This document shows, one piece after another, positions 53,653 through 64,000 of a stretch of DNA of 64,000 nucleotides. Origin of the DNA: Chloroflexota bacterium (GTDB lineage: Bacteria; Chloroflexota; Chloroflexia; Chloroflexales; Roseiflexaceae). The stretch covers positions 15,500 through 79,499 of the forward strand of contig JBCDFA010000001.1 of the NCBI GenBank assembly GCA_039178835.1, given 5' to 3'. Every line of letters starts with the position of its first letter. The stretch's first letter is position 1. The notes under the pieces are model-generated. The model was not told where the DNA came from. It saw only the letters and a list, made by a program, of their open reading frames with translations, and ran no database searches. Position numbers and translations under genes: made by a program.

Positions 53653-55560
53653 ATGAACTCAGTTATTGACACCGTCAAAGAACGTATAGATATTGTTGAT
53701 TTTATTGGAGAATACGTCCAGCTCCGCAAAGCTGGTCGCAACTACGTGGGTTTTTGCCCATTTCATCAGAATACACGCACTCCGGCCTTTACAGTTTTCT
53801 CTGAAACGCAAAGTTATCATTGTTTTGGATGCAAAGCATCTGGGACTGTCTTTGATTTCGTGATGCAAAGAGAAGGTCTGGAGTTTCGTGAAACGCTTGA
53901 AATGCTGGCACATCGTGTTGGTGTGGAATTGAAGCCCCGTACTGAAGCTGATGAGCAACGCCATCAGTTGCATGAACGTCTTTTGGAAATCAATGCCGCC
54001 GCAGCTAAGTTCTTTCAGCATACGTTGCTCAAATCTCCTCATAGCGTCGCCGCACGTGCGTATGTCGAACAGCGTGGATTCGATGCCGCAACTATCGAAG
54101 CGTTTCAACTTGGCTACTCTCGAGAAGATTGGTCTGCATTGCTGGCATATCTGACCAACCACAAAGGTTTTGAGCCAGAGGAAGTGGAAGCTGCTGGTTT
54201 GGCGATTAAACGTGATGGAAGTGGCTATTATGATCGATTTCGTGGCCGGCTCATGTTTCCTATTCGGAATGTCAAAGGTCAAGTCATTGCATTCGGAGGG
54301 CGTGCGCTTGGTGATGCGAATCCCAAGTATTTAAATTCTCCACAAACCCCTCTGTTTGACAAAAGTCACATTTTGTATGGCCTGGATCTTGCACGTTCAA
54401 CAATTCGTAACCAAGAGACGGCTGTGATCGTTGAAGGATATATAGACGTTATTGTGGCATACCAGTATGGGTTTCGCAATGTTGTTGCCCCATTAGGAAC
54501 AGCCCTGACAAGTGAGCATGCTGCTGTACTCAAAAAGCTGACCAAACGTATCTATCTTGCACTAGATGCAGATGCAGCGGGAATTAATGCGACTCTCAAA
54601 GGAATCGAAACACTTCGTCATCAATCAGAAGGCGATGTGATAACAGTTCCGACGCCACAGGGGGTGATGCAGTGGGGGGCTGATACCACAACAGAGATAC
54701 GGGTCATTGCCATGCCAGATGGGCAGGACCCTGATAATGTCATTCAGGCTGATCCAGAACAGTGGCGGGCTTTAGTAGAAAACGCTCAGCCGATTATGGA
54801 CTTTTACATCGCAGCATTGACCAGCGATCTCGACTTACGGAGTGCGCGTGGAAAAGCTGATGCGGTTGCACGTCTGGCGCCCCTTTTGGTACAAGTGTCG
54901 AATCCAATCGAGCAAGCACACTATATTCAGCGAGTTGCGCGTTTAGTAGAAGTAGAGGATCATGTTATTCGTGCTGCTTTGCCTGGCTCACAACGACCCA
55001 CACCAACACGCACTAAGGCCATCAAGCAGCCTGAGGGAGATACTCCGACAACGCGTGAGGATGCGCTCCTTGCCCTATTATTACGATATCCTTCAATGCG
55101 AACGGCGGTCCAGGAAAAGATGAAAAGTGATATATCATTGTTTCCGCTTGTAAGCGAAATGATAACGGGGATCTTGTTGGAATTGTTTGATCGGGCTGAT
55201 AATCGTGCTATTTGGCAAACGTGGATGGAGCAAGCACCAGACACCGATATTGAACACTGGATTACGACATTGGACGCAGTACTAGCTGAACAGGTTCGTC
55301 ATATTATGCACATTCATCTACCAGACTCACAGTCATATCGTTATATGAACGATGGTCTAGAATGTGCTACAATCCTACAATTACGTTTGGCACGTCGTTG
55401 GAAAGATCGTTGTAGTCAGGAAGAGGTGGAGGCACACAACGACGAAGAACGTTACGCATTGCTTGAGCGTATTATTCAGCTTAAGCAATATATCGACACT
55501 ATTAGTATACCTAAACGAAGTTCGACGTACGCTGATCTCCATGCACTTCGCACGGCCTGA
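53653..55560 (+). CDS. dnaG: DNA primase
   Basis: 635 aa. Zinc ribbon [14 protein letters not shown]...YHCFGC, the RNA-polymerase core and a TOPRIM segment ([15 protein letters not shown]). Confidence 0.95.
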
Positions 55561-55571
55561 GGGGGGCAATC

Positions 55572-57206
55572 ATGGCGAATCATAAAGATATTATGATTGA
55601 TAACAATCTACCAACCGATAATTCTCGCAACAGTGTTACCACAATAGGTGGGGATACCGACGAAAATGAATCGGGGCAAAATACCATCAACAATCTGCAA
55701 GATTTGATTGCTATTGGTCGTCAACGTGGTTATGTCATTGAGAGTGAAGTTTTACAATTGGTTCCTAATCCTGAGGCAGACCTTGATAAGTTGGAAAAGA
55801 TCCAGACGGCCTTGTCGCAAGCAGGTGTGTCAACTCGTGATGAGATTATTTCTGGTGGCTCGGATGTTGAGGTGTCTTTTGATGATGACGCTGACCTCGA
55901 AAATGGTCTGAATGTCGAAGGTATCAGTGTTAACGACACGGTTCGTATGTATCTTCGGGAGATAGGCCGTGTACCGTTGCTCAAGACAAGCCAAGAACGT
56001 GATCTGGCAGAGAAAATTGCGATTGGTGAGTACGTGAGTGCCATTAAGACACAAGAAGGTGCAGATTGGATTTTTACCAATGTACCACGTGTTGGTACCG
56101 CCATGTATGCACGTCTCGTGAAAAATTGGCCCATTGCCTATACGGTATTGCGTGAGTTGTGCACATTGCTCAATCAAGATGTGACACATCTTCCACCATC
56201 GCGTTTGCGCGAATTTCTCGATTTGCAAGATAAATTGTCATTTGAGAAGAAACCAACATTTGATGCACATCTGAATGCTGTCGCGCAAGAATATGAGTTA
56301 CCAGCCGAAAATATCGATCAGCTCTTGTCACAATCTATGATTATCTTTGAGCTATTACCGGCCAAATTGCAAGAAACGCTCAATCAGAGTACTGACTGGC
56401 CAGATGAGAGCACAGTTACTTCATTTTTTGTAGGTCAGGAAATGACTCTGTGGCGCAGTTGGAATGGTGCTATTGATGCAAGTAAAATTGCACGTGAGCA
56501 TCTCACGGAAGCCAACCTGCGCCTTGTCGTGAGTGTCGCGAAAAAGTACATCGGTCGTGGGCTGGGCTTGTTGGACTTGATCCAAGAGGGTAATGTCGGC
56601 CTTATTCGCGCTGTTGAAAAATTTGACTACCTGAAACGTTTCAAATTTAGTACTTATGCGACGTGGTGGATTCGTCAAGCTATTACACGGGCAATTGCTG
56701 ACCAAGCGCGTACTATTCGTATTCCTGTCCATATGGTTGAGACGATAAATCGTCTTTTGCGTGAGCAGCGTCGGTTACTGCAGGAATTGGGTCGTGACCC
56801 GTCGGACGAAGAACTTTCGAAGTCGCTTGATATGCCGGTAGAAAAAGTTCGCTCAATCCGTAAGACATCGCTTGAACCAGTGTCTTTGGAAACGCCTGTT
56901 GGTCAAGAAGAAGATAGCCAGTTAGGTGATTTTATCGAGGACTCGAAGGTGCTGGCTCCTTCCGATGCGGCAAGTCATCAGATGTTGCGCGAACAGGTTG
57001 AACAAGTTCTGAATCAGCTCACTGAGCGTGAACGTCGAGTATTACAGTTGCGTTTTGGTTTAGAGGATGGTCATAGTCGCACACTTGAAGAAGTAGGGAA
57101 AGAATTCGGTGTCACTCGTGAACGGATTCGCCAAATCGAAGTAAAAGCATTACGAAAACTACGCCATCCGCGTTTGGGTAAAAAGTTGCGGGATTATTTA
57201 GAGTAA
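55572..57206 (+). CDS. rpoD: Primary (housekeeping) RNA polymerase sigma factor
   Basis: 544 aa. Regions 1.2 through 4.2 are present, including [35 protein letters not shown] and [20 protein letters not shown]. Confidence 0.97.
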
Positions 57207-57250
57207 TACGTTATAGTCAAATGGGTTGGCATGCTTCCCTGTAGTACGGT

Positions 57251-57279
57251 TTGTCAAACGCAGCCAACTCGTCTATAAT
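57251..57279 (+). promoter_or_regulatory. Sigma-70-like promoter for the J-domain membrane protein gene
   Basis: TTGTCA (57251-57256), a 17-nt spacer, then TATAAT (57274-57279). It lies 30 nt upstream of the GTG start, which has a CAGGAG RBS. Confidence 0.5.
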
Positions 57280-57308
57280 GGCGCGGCCGTTGCAGACAGG
57301 AGTACCCC

Positions 57309-58673
57309 GTGCCGGACTTTGAAGATTTAGATTTTTACGAGTTGCTGAACGTACAGCGAACAGCATCGCTCGATGAAATACGGCGTGCATATCGCCGTGA
57401 GATATCAAAGTATCATCCTGATCGCTTTGTAAACGCTTCGTCTGATGAGCAAATGTATGCACAGCAGCGTAGTCAGCGTCTTACAGGTGCCTACAGCGTT
57501 TTAAGTGACCCTCGGGCGCGGAGTGCGTACAATCTTAATTTGGTTCCCGGTACTATTCCAAAACGTCAATCTGCATCAGGTCAAGCGCCAATACCACAGG
57601 CACAACCACGTGATTATCAGGCTGAATTATACGATCAAGCGCAGTCACATCTTACAGCTGGTCGAAAATTGCAAGCCATCGGGGTATTGCGGCAACTTCA
57701 ACAGATCAATCCTTTCTATCGTGACAGTGCTGAATTGTTGGCCAAACTGGAAGCACAAACACAACCACGTACCTCTGATGATAAACGTAAAACAATTCCC
57801 CCCTTCATGCTTTTTAGTGGTTTGGCTGGCATTGTCGTTGTGGTGATAGTTACGTGGTTTATCTTTCAGTCAGCAAATCCTTTTGGTATTGGTGTTTCCG
57901 AAGCGCGAATAGAACCTGTAGCTGCTGAGATGGCTACTGAGACCACACCAGAATTTTCAGATGCTACGGCTGTTCCTGCACCAACTGATGTACCTGTTCC
58001 ACCAACAGAGGTACCACCAACGGAAGTCCCAACCGAAATTCCACCAACAGAGGTACCACCAACGGAAGTCCCAACCGAAATTCCACCAACAGAGGTACCA
58101 CCAACGGAAGTTCCGCCTACCCAGCCACCTGAAGAGAGTGGTACAATATTAGTAGCAGATGGATTTGATAGCGTGGAGTGGGCCAGTCTTTCTGGTCGTG
58201 GTTGGCGTATCGGTTATCTTAACAGCCAATATCGTATTGCCGTTGATCCAGGCATTGGGAATATTTGGAGTTTTCGTACAAATGCGCCACGGGATGTAAG
58301 CATTGGTGTCGATGTACAAGTCATTAGTGGATCCGGGGGGGTACTCCTACGCTATCTTGATGATCAAAACTTTTTAGGTTTTACTATCAATCCTGCTGAA
58401 GCAAGCTATCAATTAGAACAACGTATTGCTGGGAACACGACCGTTCTTGCCGAAGGTGAGAGTTCAGCAATCATCAACGGAAGCGACGCTCAGAATCGTC
58501 TTGTGGTGCGGATGCAAGGATCACAGGTACAACTTATCGCAAATGGCCAGCCACTTGCCAGTGTTGAGATTCCGACTAATACAGGTAGTGCACGTTATGG
58601 AATGCTTGCCGTTTCAAGCGATGTGCCAGCAGAAGTCATCTTCGACAATCTTGAACTTCGAACTTTGGAGTAA
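57309..58673 (+). CDS. J-domain (DnaJ-like) membrane protein with a Pro/Thr/Glu repeat linker and a C-terminal beta-sandwich-like domain
   Basis: DFYELLNV...YRREISKYHPDR (HPD motif). One TM helix (FMLFSGLAGIVVVVIVTWFIF). A PPTEVP(T/P)E repeat linker, then a beta-rich C-terminal domain of about 175 aa. Confidence 0.85.
   Translation: MPDFEDLDFYELLNVQRTASLDEIRRAYRREISKYHPDRFVNASSDEQMYAQQRSQRLTGAYSVLSDPRARSAYNLNLVPGTIPKRQSASGQAPIPQAQPRDYQAELYDQAQSHLTAGRKLQAIGVLRQLQQINPFYRDSAELLAKLEAQTQPRTSDDKRKTIPPFMLFSGLAGIVVVVIVTWFIFQSANPFGIGVSEARIEPVAAEMATETTPEFSDATAVPAPTDVPVPPTEVPPTEVPTEIPPTEVPPTEVPTEIPPTEVPPTEVPPTQPPEESGTILVADGFDSVEWASLSGRGWRIGYLNSQYRIAVDPGIGNIWSFRTNAPRDVSIGVDVQVISGSGGVLLRYLDDQNFLGFTINPAEASYQLEQRIAGNTTVLAEGESSAIINGSDAQNRLVVRMQGSQVQLIANGQPLASVEIPTNTGSARYGMLAVSSDVPAEVIFDNLELRTLE
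57999..58111 (+). repeat. In-frame 42-bp tandem repeat (2.7 copies) encoding the PPTEVPPTEVPTEI linker
   Basis: CCACCAACAGAGGTACCACCAACGGAAGTCCCAACCGAAATT occurs at 57999-58040 and is repeated exactly at 58041-58082. A partial third copy runs to 58111. Confidence 0.95.
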
Positions 58674-58701
58674 ACATATTAGCCAATAGAAAAACAGTCC
58701 T

Positions 58702-59574
58702 ATGCGAAATGACATTATTGCCACTTTTTCCATCGTTGCGTACGATCCACAGAATGACGATTTTGGAGTAGCGGTTGCCTCAAAGTTTTTAGGGGTTGGT
58801 TCGGTTGTTCCCTGGGTGCGTTCAGATGCTGGTGCTATTGCGACACAGGCATTGGGGAATATGAGTTATGGTCCGCGAGGGTTAGATTTGATGGTGTCCG
58901 GTAAGTCTGCCGAAGAGACGCTCCAAACATTGCTTGCTGATGATGATCAGCGCGATCATCGACAAGTTGGCATTGTCGATAGTCAAGGACGTGCCGCGGC
59001 GTATACCGGTAAGAAATGTCTTGACTGGGCCGGGCATGTAACAGGAAATGGTTTTACGATACAGGGGAATATTCTGAGCAGTTCAACCGTCGTTGATAAC
59101 ATGGCCACTGCCTTCACCAGTACCCAGGGTGAGTTGGCTGAGCGCTTACTCGCAGCATTGCAAGTTGGTGACCAGACCGGTGGTGATCGACGTGGGCGAC
59201 AGTCTGCAGCTTTGTATGTTGCACGTCAGGGTGGCTCGTATGGCGGTTTCCTCGACCGGTACGTCGATCTGCGTGTGGATGATCACCAGAATCCAGTTGC
59301 CGAGCTTGTCCGGTTACTCCAATTACATCGCTTCTATCTGACTCGACCACGCCAAGAGGATCTTATGGCGATCAGTGAGCCAATTGCGCGGGAGCTACAA
59401 CAGTTGCTTCAAAAGGCTGGTTTCTACGATGGCCCCATTAGTGGAACACACGACGAAGCCACACAATCAGCCCTTGAACAGTATGGGGGGGTTGAGAATC
59501 TGGAAGAACGTTTGGTGAGCAAGACACACATTGATCCAGAAGTGCTAGATTTTATGCGAAGAAAACTTGCGTAA
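58702..59574 (+). CDS. DUF1028 (Ntn-hydrolase-like) protein with a C-terminal peptidoglycan-binding-like domain
   Basis: N-terminus TFSIVAYDPQNDDFGVAVASKFLGVGSVVPW is typical of DUF1028. The C-terminus LQQLLQKAGFYDGPISGTHDEATQSALEQY resembles PG_binding_1. Confidence 0.78.
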   Translation: MRNDIIATFSIVAYDPQNDDFGVAVASKFLGVGSVVPWVRSDAGAIATQALGNMSYGPRGLDLMVSGKSAEETLQTLLADDDQRDHRQVGIVDSQGRAAAYTGKKCLDWAGHVTGNGFTIQGNILSSSTVVDNMATAFTSTQGELAERLLAALQVGDQTGGDRRGRQSAALYVARQGGSYGGFLDRYVDLRVDDHQNPVAELVRLLQLHRFYLTRPRQEDLMAISEPIARELQQLLQKAGFYDGPISGTHDEATQSALEQYGGVENLEERLVSKTHIDPEVLDFMRRKLA

Positions 59575-59614
59575 TAAAGTATCTCGTATGTCTGTTTCTA
59601 GTGTGATATGATCA

Positions 59615-60724
59615 ATGTTTCATTTATCGACCGTTTCTCGTTTAGTATGCCCGCTGATCTGCCTACTTGCTGTTGGTTGTGCTTCGCTTTATACGCCGCA
59701 GCCTTCTGGTTCTTTACAACCAGTAGTAGTTGACGGTATACAATTGCGTGCTGGTAGTAAGATACTGGAGGTGCGAGGTACAAATTATGTTCACACCTTC
59801 AACGCTGATCTAAGCATGTGTCCAGAAATTCAATTTGGGGCGGATGGAAATTGTCCTTGGGATCTTGCGGCCATTGCCACGGATATGGAGCGGCTGCAAG
59901 GTCTGGGCATCAATACAGTTCGGATATTTCTGAACTATTATGCTTTCGGCGGCGCACGTGAAGTTGACCCCAATTACGACCTTTCGATTCCTCTCTCCCA
60001 TCTTGATGACTTCATCGATGTCGCGAACGAACATGGCATTTATGTTATGCCAGTACTTCTCGTCAAGTATCCACAGGATCGTTTTGGCCCAGAGCACTAT
60101 GAGACTGCTCTTGATCTCCATGTGCGTCCGGTTATCGAGTATCTGTCTGGCCGGGCGGGTGTCCTCGCCTGGGACGTGTTCAATGAGCCTGATCTCGGTG
60201 GCCCCATCGACCCGCGCTGTTGGGATTGGGACAATGGTGATTTTCCTCTGTGCTTCGAGTTGGCACAGGAGCGCTCACGTTTTGTAGTTGCCATATACGA
60301 CGAAGTTAAGCGCTTCGATCCTGAGCGCCTTGTAACGGTGAGTATGGGCTTTGGCAAGAACTATTTCAAACCCGATACAGCCGATATTCATCTGGCCGAG
60401 GTGGTTGATCTGTATTCCTACCACTATTATGACGACGACCCGTATGATAGTGGTCGTTACCGCGCTCATTGGTATTATGGTGAGGGTTTTCCTGCCGATC
60501 TTCATCGTGCGAATGCCGAACTCCATGCCCTTGATCTGGACAAGCCGATTCTTATTACGGAGATTGGCTTCCCAACTGGCCCTGATGCTACCCGTACCCT
60601 TGAAGAACTTCCCCAAGATCTGCAGACCGCTCTTGATGTTGCGCGTGATGATAGTACGGCTGGCATTATGGTGTGGCCCTTCCAGCCAGATCCTGATGAA
60701 TTGATCGGTGATCTCTTTCAGTAA
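59615..60724 (+). CDS. Glycoside hydrolase family 5-like lipoprotein
   Basis: Signal peptide plus lipobox (LLAVGC|A). Acid/base motif WDVFNEPD and nucleophile context ILITEIGFP. Confidence 0.78.
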   Translation: MFHLSTVSRLVCPLICLLAVGCASLYTPQPSGSLQPVVVDGIQLRAGSKILEVRGTNYVHTFNADLSMCPEIQFGADGNCPWDLAAIATDMERLQGLGINTVRIFLNYYAFGGAREVDPNYDLSIPLSHLDDFIDVANEHGIYVMPVLLVKYPQDRFGPEHYETALDLHVRPVIEYLSGRAGVLAWDVFNEPDLGGPIDPRCWDWDNGDFPLCFELAQERSRFVVAIYDEVKRFDPERLVTVSMGFGKNYFKPDTADIHLAEVVDLYSYHYYDDDPYDSGRYRAHWYYGEGFPADLHRANAELHALDLDKPILITEIGFPTGPDATRTLEELPQDLQTALDVARDDSTAGIMVWPFQPDPDELIGDLFQ

Positions 60725-60725
60725 G

Positions 60726-60755
60726 ATTGCCGATTAGCTTCCCATTGACGTATAA
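60726..60755 (+). promoter_or_regulatory. Candidate promoter of the CHAT operon
   Basis: TTGCCG (60726-60731), an 18-nt spacer, then TATAAT (60750-60755). A CAGGAG RBS lies 7 nt before the ATG at 60825. Confidence 0.35.
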
Positions 60756-60824
60756 TACCCACGACTTATATTCGCTCCACGCTGTGCTCGTTCGTTAGAA
60801 AGCCTCACAATCAGGAGCACGATT

Positions 60825-62243
60825 ATGTTCAACATCTATCACGACTTTGAAATTACTATTCAGCCGCCAAATGGTGACACCTTTCCTTATTTCATTCAGT
60901 CTCCTGGTGGTGAAGCACAGGGCATATTACGTCTGCCCACCAATACACCAACCTATCAGGAACTCGAACAACGATTGAGCCAACTCGACACAGACGAGGA
61001 CGCACTACATCAGCTGGGAACATTACTCTTTGACGCGCTGTTTGAGGGGAAGTCTGGTGAAGTATTCTCGATTAGTCGGGGGCGTTTGCAACCGAACGAA
61101 GGGTTGCGTTTTAAGTTAAGTATTGCAGCTGAAGAGAGTGTGGTAGCGTCTCTACCATGGGAGTTTATTGCCGATCCCAACCGTGGCCCATTGGCACTGC
61201 TTGATATGCCAATTGTGCGCTACTTGCCGTTAGCACTGCCAACATCGACATTGCGAACTGAGCTTCCATTGAGGGTGCTTTTGACCGGTGCCCATACGCC
61301 CCCGAATCCTGATGCAGTCACAAGCGAGCTTCGGTCTGTCAGAGAGTCGTTAGCAGCAGCTGTGCAGCGCGGGTTGGTCCAGCTTGAAGTCGAAGAGCAT
61401 CTGACCCCACGCAAATTACAGGCGTTGCTACGTCAGGACTTTCATGTCTGGCATTTTGTCGGCCATGGTGGTTTTGACCAGTCAGGTCGTAATGCACGTT
61501 TGTCGTTTGAGGACGATGATGGTGATGTGCAACGTGTGAGTGCTATGCAACTTGGCATTATGCTCAATCGGAGCAGTCTGCGACTGGTAGTGCTCAACGC
61601 GTGTGAGAGCGCCCGCCTCGCTGTTGAGCCGTTCCGTAGCCTCGCTCCAGCGCTGATCCGTGGTCAGGTGCCAGCCGTTGTTGCGATGCAGTTCTCGGTG
61701 CCGCAAGAATCGACGCGTGCTTTTGCAGGCGAGTTTTATTGTGCGCTTGCCGAGGGTTTTCCCATCGACGCGTGTGTGACAGAGGGCCGCAAAGCGATTA
61801 TGAACGAGATTGGATTGGGACGACCCGATTGGGGTATTCCGGTCGTGTACACCCGTGCGGCTGATGGCAAACTGTTTGAGACGCCAACCCCTGCGCCATC
61901 AGAGACGAATGCAACTGGTACTGGTGGTGTCAGTATCAATATCGAGAACAGCCAGCTTGATCACTCCAATGTAACTGTGAGTGAAGTGGGCAACATCGTC
62001 AAGGGCAACTCCACAAGTGACGCTGACGTAGATGTGGATAATGAGGAACTTGATGCGGAGATTGCAGCATTGAAAGACCAGGTGAGGTTAAAGAAACAGC
62101 GTCTGCGTAGACTAAGAAATCAGGAAGCTGTACATGGCATGAATACTGATCCATCGATCATAATAGAAATTGATCATTTGCAACAGGAAATAGCCGAGCT
62201 TGAAAAGCAAAGAAAGGCTCTTGAGAGCCAACGCGCCAGATAG
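60825..62243 (+). CDS. CHAT-domain (caspase-fold) protease with a C-terminal helical-hairpin/coiled-coil tail
   Basis: 472 aa. N-terminal segment with LPWEF. His/Cys dyad contexts are VWHFVGHGGF and LRLVVLNACESA. The last 60 aa or so are heptad-like (EIAALKDQVRLKKQRLRRL...EIAELEKQRKALE). Confidence 0.85.
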   Translation: MFNIYHDFEITIQPPNGDTFPYFIQSPGGEAQGILRLPTNTPTYQELEQRLSQLDTDEDALHQLGTLLFDALFEGKSGEVFSISRGRLQPNEGLRFKLSIAAEESVVASLPWEFIADPNRGPLALLDMPIVRYLPLALPTSTLRTELPLRVLLTGAHTPPNPDAVTSELRSVRESLAAAVQRGLVQLEVEEHLTPRKLQALLRQDFHVWHFVGHGGFDQSGRNARLSFEDDDGDVQRVSAMQLGIMLNRSSLRLVVLNACESARLAVEPFRSLAPALIRGQVPAVVAMQFSVPQESTRAFAGEFYCALAEGFPIDACVTEGRKAIMNEIGLGRPDWGIPVVYTRAADGKLFETPTPAPSETNATGTGGVSINIENSQLDHSNVTVSEVGNIVKGNSTSDADVDVDNEELDAEIAALKDQVRLKKQRLRRLRNQEAVHGMNTDPSIIIEIDHLQQEIAELEKQRKALESQRAR

Positions 62244-62262
62244 TATCCAGGGAGGAAGTCTT

Positions 62263-62463
62263 ATGTCACACGATGCTGAGCGTGCTGAAGAGATTGCAGC
62301 ATTAGAAAAACAGATAAGCTTAAAGAAGCGCCGCTTGCACGCCTTACAAAATCAAGCAGCCGTATACGGTATTAGTGCCGATCCGTCGATCTCGATTCAG
62401 ATTGAGGATCTAGAGCAGGAAATTAGACAACTCAGAGAAGAATTGCGTGATCTGAATGGCTGA
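62263..62463 (+). CDS. 66-aa helical protein paralogous to the C-terminal tail of the upstream CHAT protein
   Basis: ATG at 62263 has GGGAGGAAG 6 nt upstream. By eye, about 55% identity to CHAT residues ~412-462. It starts 19 nt after the CHAT stop. Confidence 0.65.
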   Translation: MSHDAERAEEIAALEKQISLKKRRLHALQNQAAVYGISADPSISIQIEDLEQEIRQLREELRDLNG

Positions 62464-62487
62464 GTTTACAAGACGAAGGAGTCGCTT

Positions 62488-63000
62488 ATGCTCATATCCA
62501 CTAGAAAATACCTGTTGCTATCAATTGTCTTGATGATTAGTCTGCGTATCGTTGCATGTTCGCCTGCACCCTCTGGCCAGTCTGAAAGTGCAGAGGAGCC
62601 GTTGGAAGGTGACTCGTCTGGCCTGGAACCAATCTCTGTTGAAGAGTCACGGGTAGTGGTCGATGTCTTTTCTGGTCGTACCAATCCGTCGTGGAGTCTT
62701 TCTGACCAGGAAACAGTAACGCTGACAACCATGCTGGAAGGGCTTGAAGAAGTGGAGGTGGCTCATTCGCCAGCCGGGCAGCTTGGGTTCCGCCAGTTTG
62801 TGGTGATGCTGGCAAGCCCAACGGCGGATGCTTCAGCAATGGTGTCTGTCTACGATACAACAGTCGAAGTGGACCATGGTGATGCGGTGAAGTACTACAC
62901 TGATACAGATGGTCAGGTTAGCCGCTGGCTCTTAGAGAGCAGCAAATCACATTTGGATGATGAGCTGTTTGCTGCCATCAAAGAAGCTGTCACACAATAA
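62488..63000 (+). CDS. Hypothetical secreted lipoprotein
   Basis: 170 aa. AAGGAG RBS. Signal peptide with lipobox-like LRIVAC|S. An acidic linker precedes a mixed alpha/beta domain of about 110 aa. I recognise no family. Confidence 0.6.
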   Translation: MLISTRKYLLLSIVLMISLRIVACSPAPSGQSESAEEPLEGDSSGLEPISVEESRVVVDVFSGRTNPSWSLSDQETVTLTTMLEGLEEVEVAHSPAGQLGFRQFVVMLASPTADASAMVSVYDTTVEVDHGDAVKYYTDTDGQVSRWLLESSKSHLDDELFAAIKEAVTQ

Positions 63001-63074
63001 CAATCACTTCAGTTCTACCGAGATGGCCAGATGAGATGTCGATTCGTTCACACTTCGCCTAGCCATCTGACATA

Positions 63075-64000
63075 TTACTGATCAGCGACATCAAACCCAA
63101 GTATCACCACAATATCTGCGGTACTCGTAACTCCATCGGGTGTGCCCTGTCGCACGTCGGCATTTAATGTATTTGCCAGCCGCCGACTCGTGCGTGGTTT
63201 ATTCCCGTTCACATCATAGATAATCGTTTGCTGCACATCTGTGTTCGGCGCGTCGGAGGCTGGAATGATCGTGAAGCCATCACTTTCGAGATCGCCAGAG
63301 ATCTGCCCGGCAAGGCCATTCACACCCGTGCCGTTCAGCACCTGCACTATTGCCGCCTCAGTTGCTTCACCCGGTGGTGTCAGCATGGCGTCCATCGCAG
63401 CCTGTTTGCCCGTTTCACTCCAGATAAGACTGAAGTTGCCATCTTCAACAACCTGTGGATCAAGCTCTGGTGAGAAGCGTACCTGACCAATATCATCAGG
63501 ATTCAGTCCACTCCCGACCCATGTGAGCGCCAATAACACATCGACTCTGCCCAATGGCATGGTTGTCGTAACGGCACCGTCCAGTCCCTCACGGAGATTC
63601 GGTAGCGTCATCACCTGTCCCACAGGACCACGTTGCTGAAATTCTGTCACAATAGCACGAATAACCTGTTGCTGGCGGGCGTTGCGATCAAAGTCACTAT
63701 CGCCGTGACGGGTACGAGCATACACAAGCGCAGTCTGGCCATCCATAACCTGCGGTCCAGGTTGGAACTCGACCTGTCTTGTGCTAAAATCTGGGTTGGG
63801 ATACGCATCGTCGATGATGAGTTCTGGTACATCGATAGTCACACCACCAAGCGCATCAATAATCTGAGCAAATCCGTCAAAGTTGACTTGCATCACATAA
63901 TCGATCCGCTGACCGCGTGTGGGCCAGCCGAGGAACTCCTCAATGGTCTGGGCTGTAAGCGCCATACCACCCTGTTGCGGTGTTGTGCCAGCGCCATAGA
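63075..64000 (-). CDS. LytR-CpsA-Psr (LCP) family cell-envelope phosphotransferase with a LytR_C domain; 5' end lies beyond the window
   Basis: LCP-core segments NFDGFAQIIDALGGVTIDV and MDGQTALVYARTRHGDSDFDRNARQQQV. The reading frame stays open to position 64000. Confidence 0.85.
   Translation of the reverse strand, partial: YGAGTTPQQGGMALTAQTIEEFLGWPTRGQRIDYVMQVNFDGFAQIIDALGGVTIDVPELIIDDAYPNPDFSTRQVEFQPGPQVMDGQTALVYARTRHGDSDFDRNARQQQVIRAIVTEFQQRGPVGQVMTLPNLREGLDGAVTTTMPLGRVDVLLALTWVGSGLNPDDIGQVRFSPELDPQVVEDGNFSLIWSETGKQAAMDAMLTPPGEATEAAIVQVLNGTGVNGLAGQISGDLESDGFTIIPASDAPNTDVQQTIIYDVNGNKPRTSRRLANTLNADVRQGTPDGVTSTADIVVILGFDVADQ

What the first reader, a model, noticed from the sequence alone, without database searches (positions are those of the whole stretch)
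62040..62463. The CHAT protein's last ~55 residues are duplicated as the free-standing downstream mini-protein
I aligned two segments by eye without gaps. The CHAT tail (residues ~412-462) reads EIAALKDQVRLKKQRLRRLRNQEAVHGMNTDPSIIIEIDHLQQEIAELEKQ. The mini-protein (residues 10-60) reads EIAALEKQISLKKRRLHALQNQAAVYGISADPSISIQIEDLEQEIRQLREE. I count about 28 identical positions of 51. Both share a helix, then a 'NQxAV(H/Y)G..(T/A)DPS' turn, then a helix. A 14-nt identical DNA string, GAGATTGCAGCATT, occurs at 62058 and 62290. A detachable copy of an enzyme's own tail suggests homotypic helical-hairpin pairing. The mini-protein could be a competitor or inhibitor of tail-mediated oligomerisation, an adaptor, or a decoy substrate. 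That logic resembles adaptor-domain coupling in eukaryotic caspase systems, but this interpretation is inference only.
Basis: seen in the sequence. Interest (0 to 1): 0.7.

Follow-up and report, generated by a model that had tools for sequence, protein, structure and literature searches.

The report
Protease tail duplicated as mini-protein
A caspase-like (CHAT) protease of a Chloroflexota bacterium ends in a two-helix hairpin, and a selected, free-standing 66-residue copy of that hairpin is encoded right after it. The hairpin belongs to a widespread, unnamed adaptor-type module found on bacterial cell-death and immunity proteins.

Summary
CHAT residues 412-466 and mini-protein residues 10-64 share 29/55 identities (BLASTP E=2e-17; score 144 against 30±6 for ordinary and heptad-preserving shuffles).

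The mini ORF (62263-62463) is a real gene. It has its own Shine-Dalgarno site and ATG, and dN/dS is 0.06 against a TARA relative.

Both copies are a ~55-residue alpha-hairpin (AlphaFold2 pLDDT 93). An exhaustive profile search found 2963 protein clusters carrying it. It sits at N- or C-termini, in tandem arrays, or alone. Its partner domains are TIR, CHAT, STAND NTPases, EAD2/7/9 and Roc. No Pfam or NCBIfam model matches it.

The CHAT-plus-mini arrangement recurs in at least four CHAT lineages. Close relatives AL-W and AL-N1 lack the mini and carry a hybrid tail, which looks like a collapsed repeat.

In four of five pairs the free copy is the more canonical one. In this lineage the tethered tail evolves about 5 times faster.

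Best reading: an adaptor-only paralogue works in trans with the protease's tail. This resembles the effector-associated-domain principle and, by analogy, the human CARD-only proteins next to caspase-1. Physical pairing is inferred, not shown. The locus is a conserved dnaG-rpoD/cell-envelope neighbourhood, not a defence island.

The parts
60825..62243 (+). CHAT (caspase-fold) protease gene, 472 aa
   Evidence: ORF. Pfam CHAT PF12770 E=9e-25 over residues 93-327. 100% identical to an NCBI 'MAG: CHAT domain-containing protein [Chloroflexota bacterium]'. Foldseek best matches are SAVED-CHAT, Csx29/TPR-CHAT, DdvA and caspases.
60825..61094 (+). N-terminal alpha/beta domain (residues 1-90) in front of the protease domain
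   Evidence: AlphaFold2 on 45 orthologues: strands 4-36 and helices 42-86, pLDDT about 76-94. No Pfam match.
61101..61805 (+). CHAT peptidase domain with the catalytic dyad: His214 (CAT, 61464-61466) and Cys260 (TGT, 61602-61604)
   Evidence: Pfam envelope 93-327. G213-H214-G215 and A259-C260 are invariant in 45 orthologues. Codons read.
61815..62033 (+). Linker of about 70 residues (331-403), predicted disordered, that tethers the tail
   Evidence: AlphaFold2 pLDDT <50 for residues 331-403.
62034..62240 (+). C-terminal alpha-hairpin tail of the CHAT protein. The module proper is residues 412-466 (62058-62222).
   Evidence: Helices 403-440 and 443-471 with pLDDT 91-97. Aligned to the mini. The same tail is present in most CHAT orthologues.
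62058..62071 (+). 14-nt string GAGATTGCAGCATT, copy 1 (start of the module; a candidate crossover site)
62244..62262 (+). 19-nt spacer between the CHAT stop (TAG 62241-62243) and the mini start. It contains the Shine-Dalgarno-like GGGAGGAAG (62250-62258).
   Evidence: Read. The same layout occurs in the TARA relative. No terminator-like site on the + strand in this spacer.
62263..62463 (+). Free-standing mini-protein gene, 66 aa, in the +1 frame relative to CHAT. The module is residues 10-64 (62290-62454).
   Evidence: Orthologues P0001 (94% identical) and P0002 (88%). dN/dS 0.06 against the TARA copy. AlphaFold2 hairpin, pLDDT 93.
62290..62303 (+). 14-nt string GAGATTGCAGCATT, copy 2
62488..63000 (+). 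Downstream co-directional 170-aa gene, 24 nt after the mini. It has a lipoprotein-like signal (…RIVAC). This is context only; no functional link is shown.
   Evidence: ORF. No Pfam or NCBIfam match. Conserved in TARA and AL-W but absent in L009.

Best explanation
SHOWN. (1) The last ~60 residues of the CHAT protease and the 66-aa protein encoded 19 nt downstream are paralogous copies of one alpha-helical hairpin. Helix 1 is basic and helix 2 acidic, with a conserved A..G....P turn. (2) The mini is a real gene under strong purifying selection. (3) The hairpin belongs to a large, un-annotated family of small non-catalytic modules. These sit at the N- or C-termini of TIR, CHAT, STAND-NTPase, Roc and EAD-bearing proteins, in tandem arrays, or alone. 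(4) The 'CHAT tail plus free mini' arrangement has arisen or been retained in at least four CHAT lineages. In at least one lineage (AL-W/AL-N1) it seems to have collapsed back to one copy by recombination between the copies. (5) In four of five pairs the free copy keeps the family-canonical sequence, while the tethered copy diverges yet stays a hairpin.

INFERRED mechanism. The hairpin is a self-associating adaptor. Two hairpins would pack into an antiparallel four-helix bundle. This would control assembly of the caspase-like protease and its recruitment to other module-bearing proteins, in the way proposed for effector-associated domains. In this lineage the job is split. The mini supplies the canonical adaptor surface in trans. 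The tail, held on a ~70-residue flexible linker, has specialised as its docking site. The mini would therefore act as an adaptor-only partner that sets the protease's oligomeric or partnered state. I favour a bridging or gating subunit over a pure dominant-negative decoy. The sign of the effect (activation or inhibition) is not resolved.
For: Paralogy and significance.

Real gene: its own SD and ATG; the same 66-aa gene in two further assemblies; 22 synonymous against 8 non-synonymous differences to the TARA copy, dN/dS 0.06, binomial P=2e-9 against neutrality.

Hairpin fold: pLDDT 93, helices 2-33 and 36-60. In the full-length model the hairpin has pLDDT above 90 behind a 331-403 segment with pLDDT below 50. 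Net charge is +3 to +6 for helix 1 and -3 to -5 for helix 2.

Family: 2963 clusters at E<=1e-3 and 381 at E<=1e-10. Among the top 147 hits, 51 are N-terminal, 37 C-terminal, 45 multi-copy or internal, and 14 free-standing at <=90 aa. Pfam partners are EAD7 (11 proteins), TIR_2 (7), CHAT (6), AAA_16, nSTAND1/2, NACHT, EAD2, EAD9, Roc, TCAD2/9.

Recurrence: L009/L010/L138 (CHAT P0019 plus 73-aa P0270, same dnaG-rpoD synteny); P0026 plus P0136; L095-L097/L100. These lineages are scattered in an NJ tree of CHAT bodies.

Asymmetry: dN is 0.05 for the mini and 0.25 for the tail module between window and TARA, with the CHAT body at 0.054. The mini is 70% identical to the AL-W single tail but 45% to its own tail. 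P0270 is 79% identical to the single tail of P0010 but 50% to its own tail. Scores against an independent HMM built from 37 N-terminal modules of other proteins, mini versus tail: 80.6/61.5, 83.3/64.3, 75.9/65.7, 84.9/70.3; TARA is a tie at 74.7/76.3.

Collapsed repeat in AL-W: it combines the tail-type pre-module with the mini-type last helix turns and C-terminus.

Assembly-regulated CHAT precedents: the nearest solved structures are an activated SAVED-CHAT filament and Csx29 in the Craspase complex.

Conceptual precedent: the EAD principle (PMC7159879 section 30; PMC8195603).
Against: There is no direct evidence of tail-mini, mini-mini or tail-tail binding, and no multimer model could be run.

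The mini is dispensable. It is absent in AL-W/AL-N1, the P0015 lineage and Kouleothrix/Ribeiella. None of the 7 tail-bearing CHAT loci among GTDB species representatives has a second copy.

No other module-bearing protein, NTPase or recognised defence gene lies in the 64-kb window. The gene sits in a conserved dnaG-rpoD-DnaJ-DUF1028/PG-binding-GH5-like-CHAT-…-LytR neighbourhood.

If the tail's job were to bind the mini, one might expect co-evolution. Instead the tail drifts away from it, to 53% identity.

In the TARA lineage the two copies look partly homogenised (dS 0.39 over the first 43 codons), and there the asymmetry disappears.

Coiled-coil-like sequences inflate profile hits, so the size of the family carries some uncertainty.
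Confidence: 0.42

Rival explanations
1. CARD-only-protein-like decoy. The mini caps the CHAT tail and blocks the tail-tail oligomerisation needed for protease activation, acting as a dominant-negative safety catch.
For: It is a lineage-restricted, domain-only copy of the protease's own interaction module, encoded immediately next to the protease. Human COP/INCA/ICEBERG have the same layout beside caspase-1 and act as non-enzymatic decoys (PMC3775265). The nearest solved CHAT structures are proteases in regulated assemblies. The mini is dispensable in many orthologues, as expected for a modulator.
Against: A decoy should track the domain it mimics. Here the mini stays family-canonical (dN/dS 0.06), and the tail diverges from it about 5 times faster at non-synonymous sites. 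No binding data exist.
Confidence: 0.2
2. Division of labour without pairing. The canonical hairpin has a function of its own, such as binding a third partner or another module-bearing protein elsewhere in the genome, and that function does not need covalent linkage to CHAT. After duplication the free copy kept this function. The attached copy is relaxed or neo-functionalised, and the two do not interact.
For: The free copy is the conserved one in 4 of 5 pairs. About 10% of top family hits are free-standing and many are fused to unrelated domains, so the module works in many contexts. The tail sits on a long linker predicted to be disordered. In single-copy species the protease might even release it, as Kaur et al. 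proposed for effectors in caspase-containing systems.
Against: The tail module is still under constraint (dN/dS 0.25, intact heptads and turn). The tight operon arrangement with a 19-nt spacer is conserved across independent lineages, which suggests stoichiometric co-expression with CHAT. No third partner has been identified.
Confidence: 0.2
3. Decoy substrate or pro-peptide. The hairpin, or the linker in front of it, is cleaved by the CHAT protease, and the mini competes as a substrate or mimics the released product.
For: Caspase-like proteases in these systems are proposed to auto-process and release C-terminal domains (PMC7159879). The linker is predicted to be disordered.
Against: The mini holds only the hairpin and about 9 preceding residues, not the linker where cleavage would be expected. 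No conserved cleavage motif was identified. Nothing here tests proteolysis.
Confidence: 0.07
4. Non-functional by-product: a neutral tandem duplication remnant, or an assembly or frameshift artefact of a CHAT protein that really carries two tandem hairpins.
For: Tandem duplications of gene ends are common. Some family members do carry two degenerate hairpins in one ORF (P0032, P0067, P0071, P0105). The mini's frame is open back to 62194 and overlaps the CHAT 3' end.
Against: The same two-ORF layout, with stop, SD and ATG, appears in independent assemblies (NCBI MAG, TARA ENA scaffold, Logan contig). There are 22 synonymous against 8 non-synonymous changes (P=2e-9). Synonymous sites between the copies are saturated, so the copy has survived a long time. 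The arrangement recurs in at least 3 other lineages.
Confidence: 0.04

Closest known systems
Effector-associated domains (EAD1-EAD12) of prokaryotic NTP-dependent conflict systems (Kaur, Burroughs, Iyer, Aravind 2020, PMC7159879; Kaur et al. 2021, PMC8195603)
   Same: Both are small non-catalytic, all-alpha modules. Both sit at the N- or C-terminus of effectors (caspase/CHAT, TIR) and of STAND NTPases or GTPases. Copies occur in adjacent genes and are closer to each other than to other family members. Both are enriched in filamentous or multicellular bacteria. The hairpin is physically fused in the same proteins as EAD7, EAD2 and EAD9.
   Different: None of the Pfam EAD models matches the hairpin. 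It is a bare two-helix hairpin, not a globular helical bundle. It forms tandem arrays of up to 6 copies. Here the second copy is a domain-less 66-aa protein rather than a core NTPase/VMAP/GAP1 component. The locus has no ternary-system core and lies in a housekeeping/cell-envelope neighbourhood.
Human CARD-only proteins COP/CARD16, INCA/CARD17 and ICEBERG/CARD18 next to CASP1 (and pyrin-only proteins) (PMC3775265)
   Same: In both cases the interaction domain of a caspase-fold protease is duplicated as a stand-alone small protein encoded right beside the protease gene. Both are restricted to particular lineages and arise by local duplication.
   Different: They are not homologous: a six-helix death fold at the N-terminus versus a two-helix hairpin at the C-terminus. 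COPs are the derived copies that mimic the parent CARD. Here the stand-alone copy is the conservative one and the parent's copy diverges. COP function is shown by experiment; nothing is shown here.
CHAT-family proteases regulated by assembly or partners: SAVED-CHAT (8tl0), Csx29/TPR-CHAT of Craspase (8eey, 7y85), DdvA (8rot)
   Same: They share the protease fold and the His-Cys dyad. In these entries the CHAT protease is seen in a filament or in a complex with partner proteins, going by the entry titles; that they are activated in this way is my own knowledge.
   Different: Their regulatory domains differ (SAVED, TPR, transmembrane anti-sigma). None has this hairpin tail. Sequence identity is only 11-20%.
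HetF, the CHAT protease of filamentous cyanobacteria (NCBIfam NF045509)
   Same: Both are CHAT proteases of filamentous bacteria. There is a weak hit at E=2e-14 over the catalytic core.
   Different: The score of 52.9 bits is far below the family cut-off of 1200. The proteins are 836 versus 472 aa, and HetF has no hairpin tail. This protein is not a HetF member.

Membership tests
[quoted passage not shown] 2020) | Small domain with no enzymatic features | tested here: met
   A two-helix hairpin of about 55-60 residues, pLDDT 93. No catalytic family hit.
[quoted passage not shown] 2020) | Found at the N- or C-terminus of effector or signalling domains and of core NTPase components | tested here: met
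   51 N-terminal and 37 C-terminal among the top 147 hits. Fused to TIR, CHAT, NACHT, nSTAND1/2, AAA_16 and Roc.
[quoted passage not shown] 2020) | One copy on a core component (VMAP, iSTAND, Ubl, GAP1…) and a second copy on an effector, often in the adjacent gene | tested here: not met
   In this locus the second copy is a domain-less 66-aa protein. No NTPase, vWA or MoxR gene and no third module copy lies in the 64-kb window. Genome-wide partners could not be searched.
[quoted passage not shown] 2020) | [quoted passage not shown] | tested here: met
   Outside their orthologues, the window tail's closest relatives are the W/T/AL-W group, including its own mini (45-48% against 29-41% to other lineages). 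They share the lineage-specific 'NQ.A' and EIAAL features.
[quoted passage not shown] 2020) | Sequence membership in one of the described EAD families (Pfam EAD models) | tested here: not met
   No EAD model appears among the hits listed for the tail or the mini at E<=1, or among the 25 most-matched families for 104 diverse module sequences at E<=0.01. There is a single sub-threshold EAD10 hit, 19 bits against a cut-off of 24.1, for one mini.
[quoted passage not shown] 2020) | Homotypic interaction between copies | not testable with these tools
   This is itself a prediction in the source papers. No multimer modelling or experiment was available here.
CHAT / clan CD caspase-like peptidases (Pfam PF12770) | Profile match above the curated threshold, a conserved His-Cys catalytic dyad, and a caspase-like fold | tested here: met
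   88.1 bits against a cut-off of 24. H214 and C260 are invariant in 45 orthologues. Foldseek matches SAVED-CHAT, Csx29 and caspases at E=2e-9 to 1e-3.
CARD-only / pyrin-only proteins | Death-fold (six-helix) domain homologous to the CARD of caspase-1 or the PYD of ASC | tested here: not met
   The model has two helices only. There is no Pfam CARD/PYD/Death hit. The resemblance is functional and architectural only.
CARD-only / pyrin-only proteins | Stand-alone copy of the protease's own interaction domain, encoded adjacent to it, arisen by local duplication, lineage-restricted | tested here: met
   comparison with PMC3775265.
HetF (NCBIfam NF045509) | Full-length equivalog score >=1200 bits | tested here: not met
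   52.9 bits, catalytic core only.
EACC1-caspase two-gene system (Kaur et al. 2020) | A 5' gene encoding the single-TM EACC1 domain, followed by a caspase gene with a variable C-terminus | tested here: inconclusive
   The 5' neighbour is a 369-aa GH5-like protein (its orthologues hit Pfam Cellulase), not a small TM protein. No EACC1 hit was seen. I did not confirm that an EACC1 model is in the Pfam copy used.

The most novel reading that the evidence does not exclude
The hairpin is a previously unnamed, very widespread adaptor of bacterial cell-death and immunity networks (about 3000 clusters at 50% identity). Caspase-like CHAT proteases have repeatedly spun off 'adaptor-only' mini-proteins from their own tails. 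This would be a prokaryotic, independently evolved counterpart of the CARD-only and pyrin-only regulators of inflammasome caspases. A phage-like contig (L011) encodes a two-hairpin mini-protein nearly identical in its core to the window's mini, which would then be a viral mimic that subverts this assembly, as poxviral pyrin-only proteins do.
Probability: 0.2. Interest if true: 0.75.

Novelty: new variant of a known kind. Interest (0 to 1): 0.55.

Why it matters
Homotypic adaptor domains such as CARD, PYD and Death are the wiring of animal caspase and NLR signalling. For bacteria the equivalent 'EAD principle' is so far a purely computational proposal. This locus offers a very small, tractable test case: one caspase-like protease, one flexible linker, one 55-residue hairpin, and one 66-residue free copy under strong selection. 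Natural controls exist, namely close relatives with the repeat collapsed to a single hybrid copy.

If the two hairpins pair, this is a minimal system for asking how adaptor-only proteins tune a prokaryotic caspase. It would also show that the COP/POP solution evolved more than once. Separately, the hairpin family is large, is missing from Pfam and NCBIfam, and is attached to TIR, STAND and CHAT proteins. A model for it would improve annotation of many 'hypothetical' N- and C-terminal extensions in cyanobacterial and Chloroflexota immune-like proteins.

Tried and rejected
(1) Known-family assignment of the module. Pfam, NCBIfam, PADLOC and PHROGs gave only coiled-coil noise (Med9, Wtap, SlyX, uL29 and similar), all below their cut-offs. 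A PDB sequence search found only designed coiled coils and uL29 at E>0.005. Foldseek with the hairpin model found only generic hairpins at E>0.2.

(2) 'RBS capture': the idea that the duplicated unit included the start region of the downstream gene, giving the mini its SD and ATG. The alignment score was 20 against 11.8±2.6 for shuffles (P about 0.013), but 2 of 31 ordinary start regions in the window score as well. I rejected this as not significant.

(3) The mini as a very recent, clade-private birth. I rejected this. The mini keeps the family-ancestral 'ERAEEI' pre-module, which all three CHAT tails (window, TARA, AL-W) have lost. AL-W combines the two derived states. Other lineages also have minis.

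(4) A rule that 'loss of the aromatic residue before the turn glycine predicts a mini'. It fails. P0017, P0061 and P0080 have non-aromatic tails and no mini.

(5) The EACC1 idea recalled from memory. EACC1 is a single-TM domain encoded 5' of the caspase gene, so it is not this.

(6) Phage occurrence of the module. There was no match in IMG/VR or INPHARED.

(7) dN/dS in the second lineage (L009 against L138). There are too few differences to be informative.

(8) The search for related loci with the module alignment failed because no stretch of columns is conserved enough.
Full report
1. THE OBSERVATION

The region holds a 472-aa ORF (60825..62243, +) and, 19 nt after its TAG, a small ORF. I start the small ORF at ATG 62263 (66 aa, stop 62461-62463) because GGGAGGAAG lies 5-13 nt upstream. 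Pfam places a CHAT domain at residues 93-327 (E=9e-25).

CHAT residues 412-466 align without gaps to mini residues 10-64. The alignment has 29/55 identities and BLASTP E=2e-17.

The Smith-Waterman score is 144. Residue shuffles give 30±6, and shuffles that keep the heptad register give 32±6, with no shuffle above 76. The similarity is therefore not generic coiled-coil resemblance.

The 14-mer occurs exactly at 62058 and 62290. At the DNA level the copies are only 62% identical, with 45% at third positions, and synonymous sites are saturated. The duplication is old and is maintained at the protein level. No further copy exists in the window.

2. THE MINI IS A REAL GENE

The word-indexed search found two near-identical 66-aa proteins. 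One lies on a 126-kb TARA scaffold directly after the orthologous CHAT gene (86% identical), with the same stop/SD/ATG layout.

Between window and TARA the mini shows 22 synonymous and 8 non-synonymous differences. This gives dN/dS 0.06 and P=2e-9 against neutrality. The CHAT body is equally constrained (dN/dS 0.085, dN 0.054). The CHAT-attached hairpin has dN 0.25 and dN/dS 0.26.

3. ANATOMY

AlphaFold2 with 27 module sequences gives a two-helix hairpin (helices 2-33 and 36-60) at mean pLDDT 93.

The full-length model, built from 45 orthologues, has these parts:
- an N-terminal alpha/beta domain (residues 1-90);
- the caspase-like core;
- a segment at residues 331-403 with pLDDT below 50;
- the hairpin at residues 403-471 with pLDDT 91-97.

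So the tail is a folded unit on a roughly 70-residue flexible tether. His214 and Cys260 are invariant. The nearest solved folds are an activated SAVED-CHAT filament, Csx29/TPR-CHAT of Craspase, DdvA and the caspases. Helix 1 is basic (+3 to +6) and helix 2 acidic (-3 to -5).

4. THE TAIL IS STANDARD FOR THIS CHAT FAMILY, AND THE LOCUS IS CORE GENOME

The CHAT protein has 624 homologues at E<=1e-5, mostly proteins of 440-480 aa from Roseiflexaceae, Kouleothrix and other Chloroflexota. Most of the best 120 end in the same hairpin. The consensus is xRAEEIAxLxxLIxxKxRRLxxLxxQxAxYGIxxDPxIxIEIEDLxxEIAxLxxxLxxLxG.

The gene order dnaG - rpoD - DnaJ-domain - DUF1028/PG-binding - GH5-like - CHAT - … - LytR(-) is found in the window. 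It recurs in relatives down to about 50% CHAT identity. This is a vertically inherited orthologue in a housekeeping/cell-envelope neighbourhood, not a mobile defence island. PADLOC gives only a weak SAVED_CHAT core hit.

Paralogues with the same CHAT body carry other C-termini: EAD7 plus hairpin, NB-ARC/STAND NTPases, or an Hsp70 fragment.

5. THE HAIRPIN IS A WIDESPREAD, PROMISCUOUS, UN-ANNOTATED MODULE

A profile of 27 hairpins was searched exhaustively against 1.84 billion cluster representatives. It found 2963 proteins at E<=1e-3 and 381 at E<=1e-10.

In the top 147 hits the module is N-terminal in 51, C-terminal in 37, multi-copy or internal in 45 (up to 6 tandem copies), and free-standing at <=90 aa in 14.

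The Pfam partners in those proteins are EAD7 (11), TIR_2 (7), CHAT (6), AAA_16, nSTAND1, nSTAND2, NACHT, EAD2, EAD9, Roc/Ras, TCAD2/TCAD9, FGE-sulfatase, WD40/TPR and PT-HINT. This is the domain network of the NTP-dependent conflict systems of multicellular bacteria (PMC7159879; PMC8195603).

The nearly invariant columns are L20, A28, G31, P36, I42 and L52. The invariant A..G....P turn gives the family specificity beyond heptads.

I found no model for it. No Pfam or NCBIfam family rises above coiled-coil noise for 104 diverse members. There is no PDB sequence relative, and only generic hairpins match by fold. The two eLife papers do not describe such a hairpin.

6. THE CHAT-PLUS-MINI ARRANGEMENT RECURS, WITH A CONSISTENT ASYMMETRY

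Three further lineages show it:
- L009/L010/L138: CHAT P0019 (51% identical to the window protein, same synteny) is followed after 34 nt by the 73-aa P0270 and a terminator.
- L095-L097/L100: a fused CHAT-hairpin-CHAT ORF of 923 aa is followed after 23 nt by a 66-aa mini.

These lineages are scattered in an NJ tree of CHAT bodies, with single-copy sisters. Their repeat periods differ: 232 nt here and about 256 nt in L009.

The mini is absent in AL-W/AL-N1 (83% identical CHAT), the P0015 lineage, Kouleothrix/Ribeiella, and all 7 tail-bearing loci among GTDB species representatives. It is also absent from several metagenomic orthologues with enough downstream sequence.

In each pair the free copy is the family-canonical one. 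P0270 is 79% identical to the single tail of P0010 but only 50% to its own CHAT's tail. The window mini is 70% identical to the AL-W tail but 45% to its own tail.

I scored each pair against an independent HMM built only from N-terminal modules of unrelated architectures. Mini versus tail scores are 80.6/61.5 (window), 83.3/64.3, 75.9/65.7 and 84.9/70.3. TARA is a tie at 74.7/76.3.

7. HISTORY IN THE WINDOW'S CLADE

I built a PSSM from 23 outgroup tails.
- In the five residues before the module, the minis score +14.7. They keep the ancestral ERAEE. The three CHAT tails score -5.6 to +0.9, sharing the derived EELD.
- In the last helix turns, the window and TARA tails are ancestral-like (+12.6 and +21.1). 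The minis and AL-W are derived (+3.2 and -2.0).

AL-W thus combines the tail-type 5' edge with the mini-type body, C-terminus (+2 residues) and 24-nt spacer to the next gene. The most parsimonious reading is that the two-copy state predates the window/TARA/AL-W split. AL-W and AL-N1 then collapsed the repeat by recombination near the shared GAGATTGCAGC string. This is inference.

In TARA the first 43 codons of tail and mini differ by dS 0.39. That is less than the window-TARA orthologue divergence (dS 0.63-0.9), which suggests gene conversion (inference). I cannot decide whether the four lineages reflect independent duplications or one ancient duplication with repeated collapse.

8. MECHANISM

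What is shown stops at points 1-7 above. The inference runs as follows.
- A roughly 55-residue amphipathic hairpin with a broad hydrophobic face would normally bury it by pairing into a four-helix bundle. This is general knowledge about two-helix hairpins, not something tested here.
- Its terminal positions, tandem arrays and fusion partners match the grammar of homotypic adaptors (the EAD principle).
- Related CHAT and caspase proteases are controlled by assembly. One search shows the structural neighbours only; their activation by assembly is my own knowledge.

I therefore propose that the mini is an adaptor-only partner of the protease's tail. The mini keeps the canonical surface while the tethered copy diverges under weaker but real constraint. 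For that reason I favour a split arrangement, with the canonical adaptor supplied in trans and the tail specialised as its docking site, over a simple decoy that mimics the tail. Confidence is modest (0.42).

The rivals are a COP-like inhibitor, an independently acting module, a substrate decoy, and a neutral remnant or artefact. They are listed with their tests in the rival explanations.

9. COMPARISON WITH WHAT IS KNOWN, AND NOVELTY

Functionally and architecturally the closest described concept is the EAD principle. The module meets the descriptive EAD criteria but fails sequence membership in the Pfam EAD models. In this locus it also fails the 'one copy on a core NTPase component' criterion.

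The closest analogy for a stand-alone copy of a caspase-fold protease's own interaction domain, encoded next to it, is the human CARD-only protein cluster beside CASP1 (PMC3775265). The fold is different and the polarity of divergence is reversed.

I rate the finding a new variant of a known kind. It is a real and fairly interesting feature, but the underlying logic of homotypic adaptors in prokaryotic caspase systems has been proposed before, and nothing here demonstrates binding.

Noticed in passing
L011:7931-8200 (Logan SRR22808026 contig, 12.3 kb): A phage- or prophage-like early region (cI/Cro-type HTH, LexA-like, primase Zn-ribbon, DnaB_2, DnaB_C) encodes an 89-aa protein, P0273, made of two tandem hairpin modules. 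The second module (RRLHALLEKAAVYGISADPSISIEIEDIQ) is strikingly close to the window's mini. P0271 (91 aa) is similar. It could be a viral mimic of the host adaptor. No relatives were found in IMG/VR or INPHARED.
   Followed up: partly
L096:2456-5450 (also L095, L097, L100): A 923-aa ORF fuses CHAT, hairpin and a second CHAT domain. A canonical 66-aa mini follows 23 nt later. It looks like a whole-gene tandem duplicate in which the first junction fused in frame and the last hairpin was split off.
   Followed up: partly
window 61930-62020 (CHAT residues ~370-400): The linker, predicted to be disordered, contains a semi-conserved motif, G.N..IG.GN.L..S.I..S.VG (window: GGVSINIENSQLDHSNVTVSEVGNIVKGN). 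A similar Gly/Asn/Val-rich stretch follows the module in P0274. Its function is unknown; it could be a beta-strand repeat or a processing site.
   Followed up: no
window 53653-63965: The CHAT gene sits in a gene order conserved across Chloroflexales-like genomes: dnaG, rpoD, DnaJ-domain protein with a Pro/Thr/Glu-rich repeat, DUF1028 with PG-binding domains, GH5-like protein, CHAT, (mini), small lipoprotein-like gene, LytR-CpsA-Psr on the opposite strand. This hints at a cell-envelope or filament-development role rather than a mobile defence role.
   Followed up: partly
window 57960-58110 (inside the DnaJ-domain gene 57309-58673): There is a tandem peptide repeat (PTEVPPTEVPTEI…) in the DnaJ-domain protein. 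It also produces spurious repeat ORFs on both strands.
   Followed up: no
P0124 (333 aa), P0130 (275 aa), P0123 (756 aa): Three other architectures carry the module: a PT-HINT pretoxin domain followed by five short hairpin repeats; two N-terminal hairpins followed by what looks like a TIR domain (by eye; no per-protein Pfam result); and six hairpins plus EAD7 plus NACHT. So the module also occurs in polymorphic-toxin-like and NLR-like proteins.
   Followed up: no
P0032, P0067, P0071, P0105 (CHAT homologues of ~550 aa): These carry two degenerate hairpins in tandem within one ORF after the CHAT domain. Duplicated tails therefore exist both fused and split.
   Followed up: partly
L159:1-4332 and the P0017 contig: A paralogous locus has a ~1140-aa CHAT protein immediately upstream of a 440-aa CHAT-plus-hairpin protein, next to SET-domain and cyanophycin synthetase genes. 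There is no mini there.
   Followed up: partly
hairpin model mbd7f45bcb81d: Ribosomal protein uL29 chains give TM 0.7-0.78 and 29-32% identity to the hairpin. Six of 104 module sequences weakly hit Pfam Ribosomal_L29. None of this is significant (E about 0.6-1), and it is probably generic hairpin similarity.
   Followed up: no
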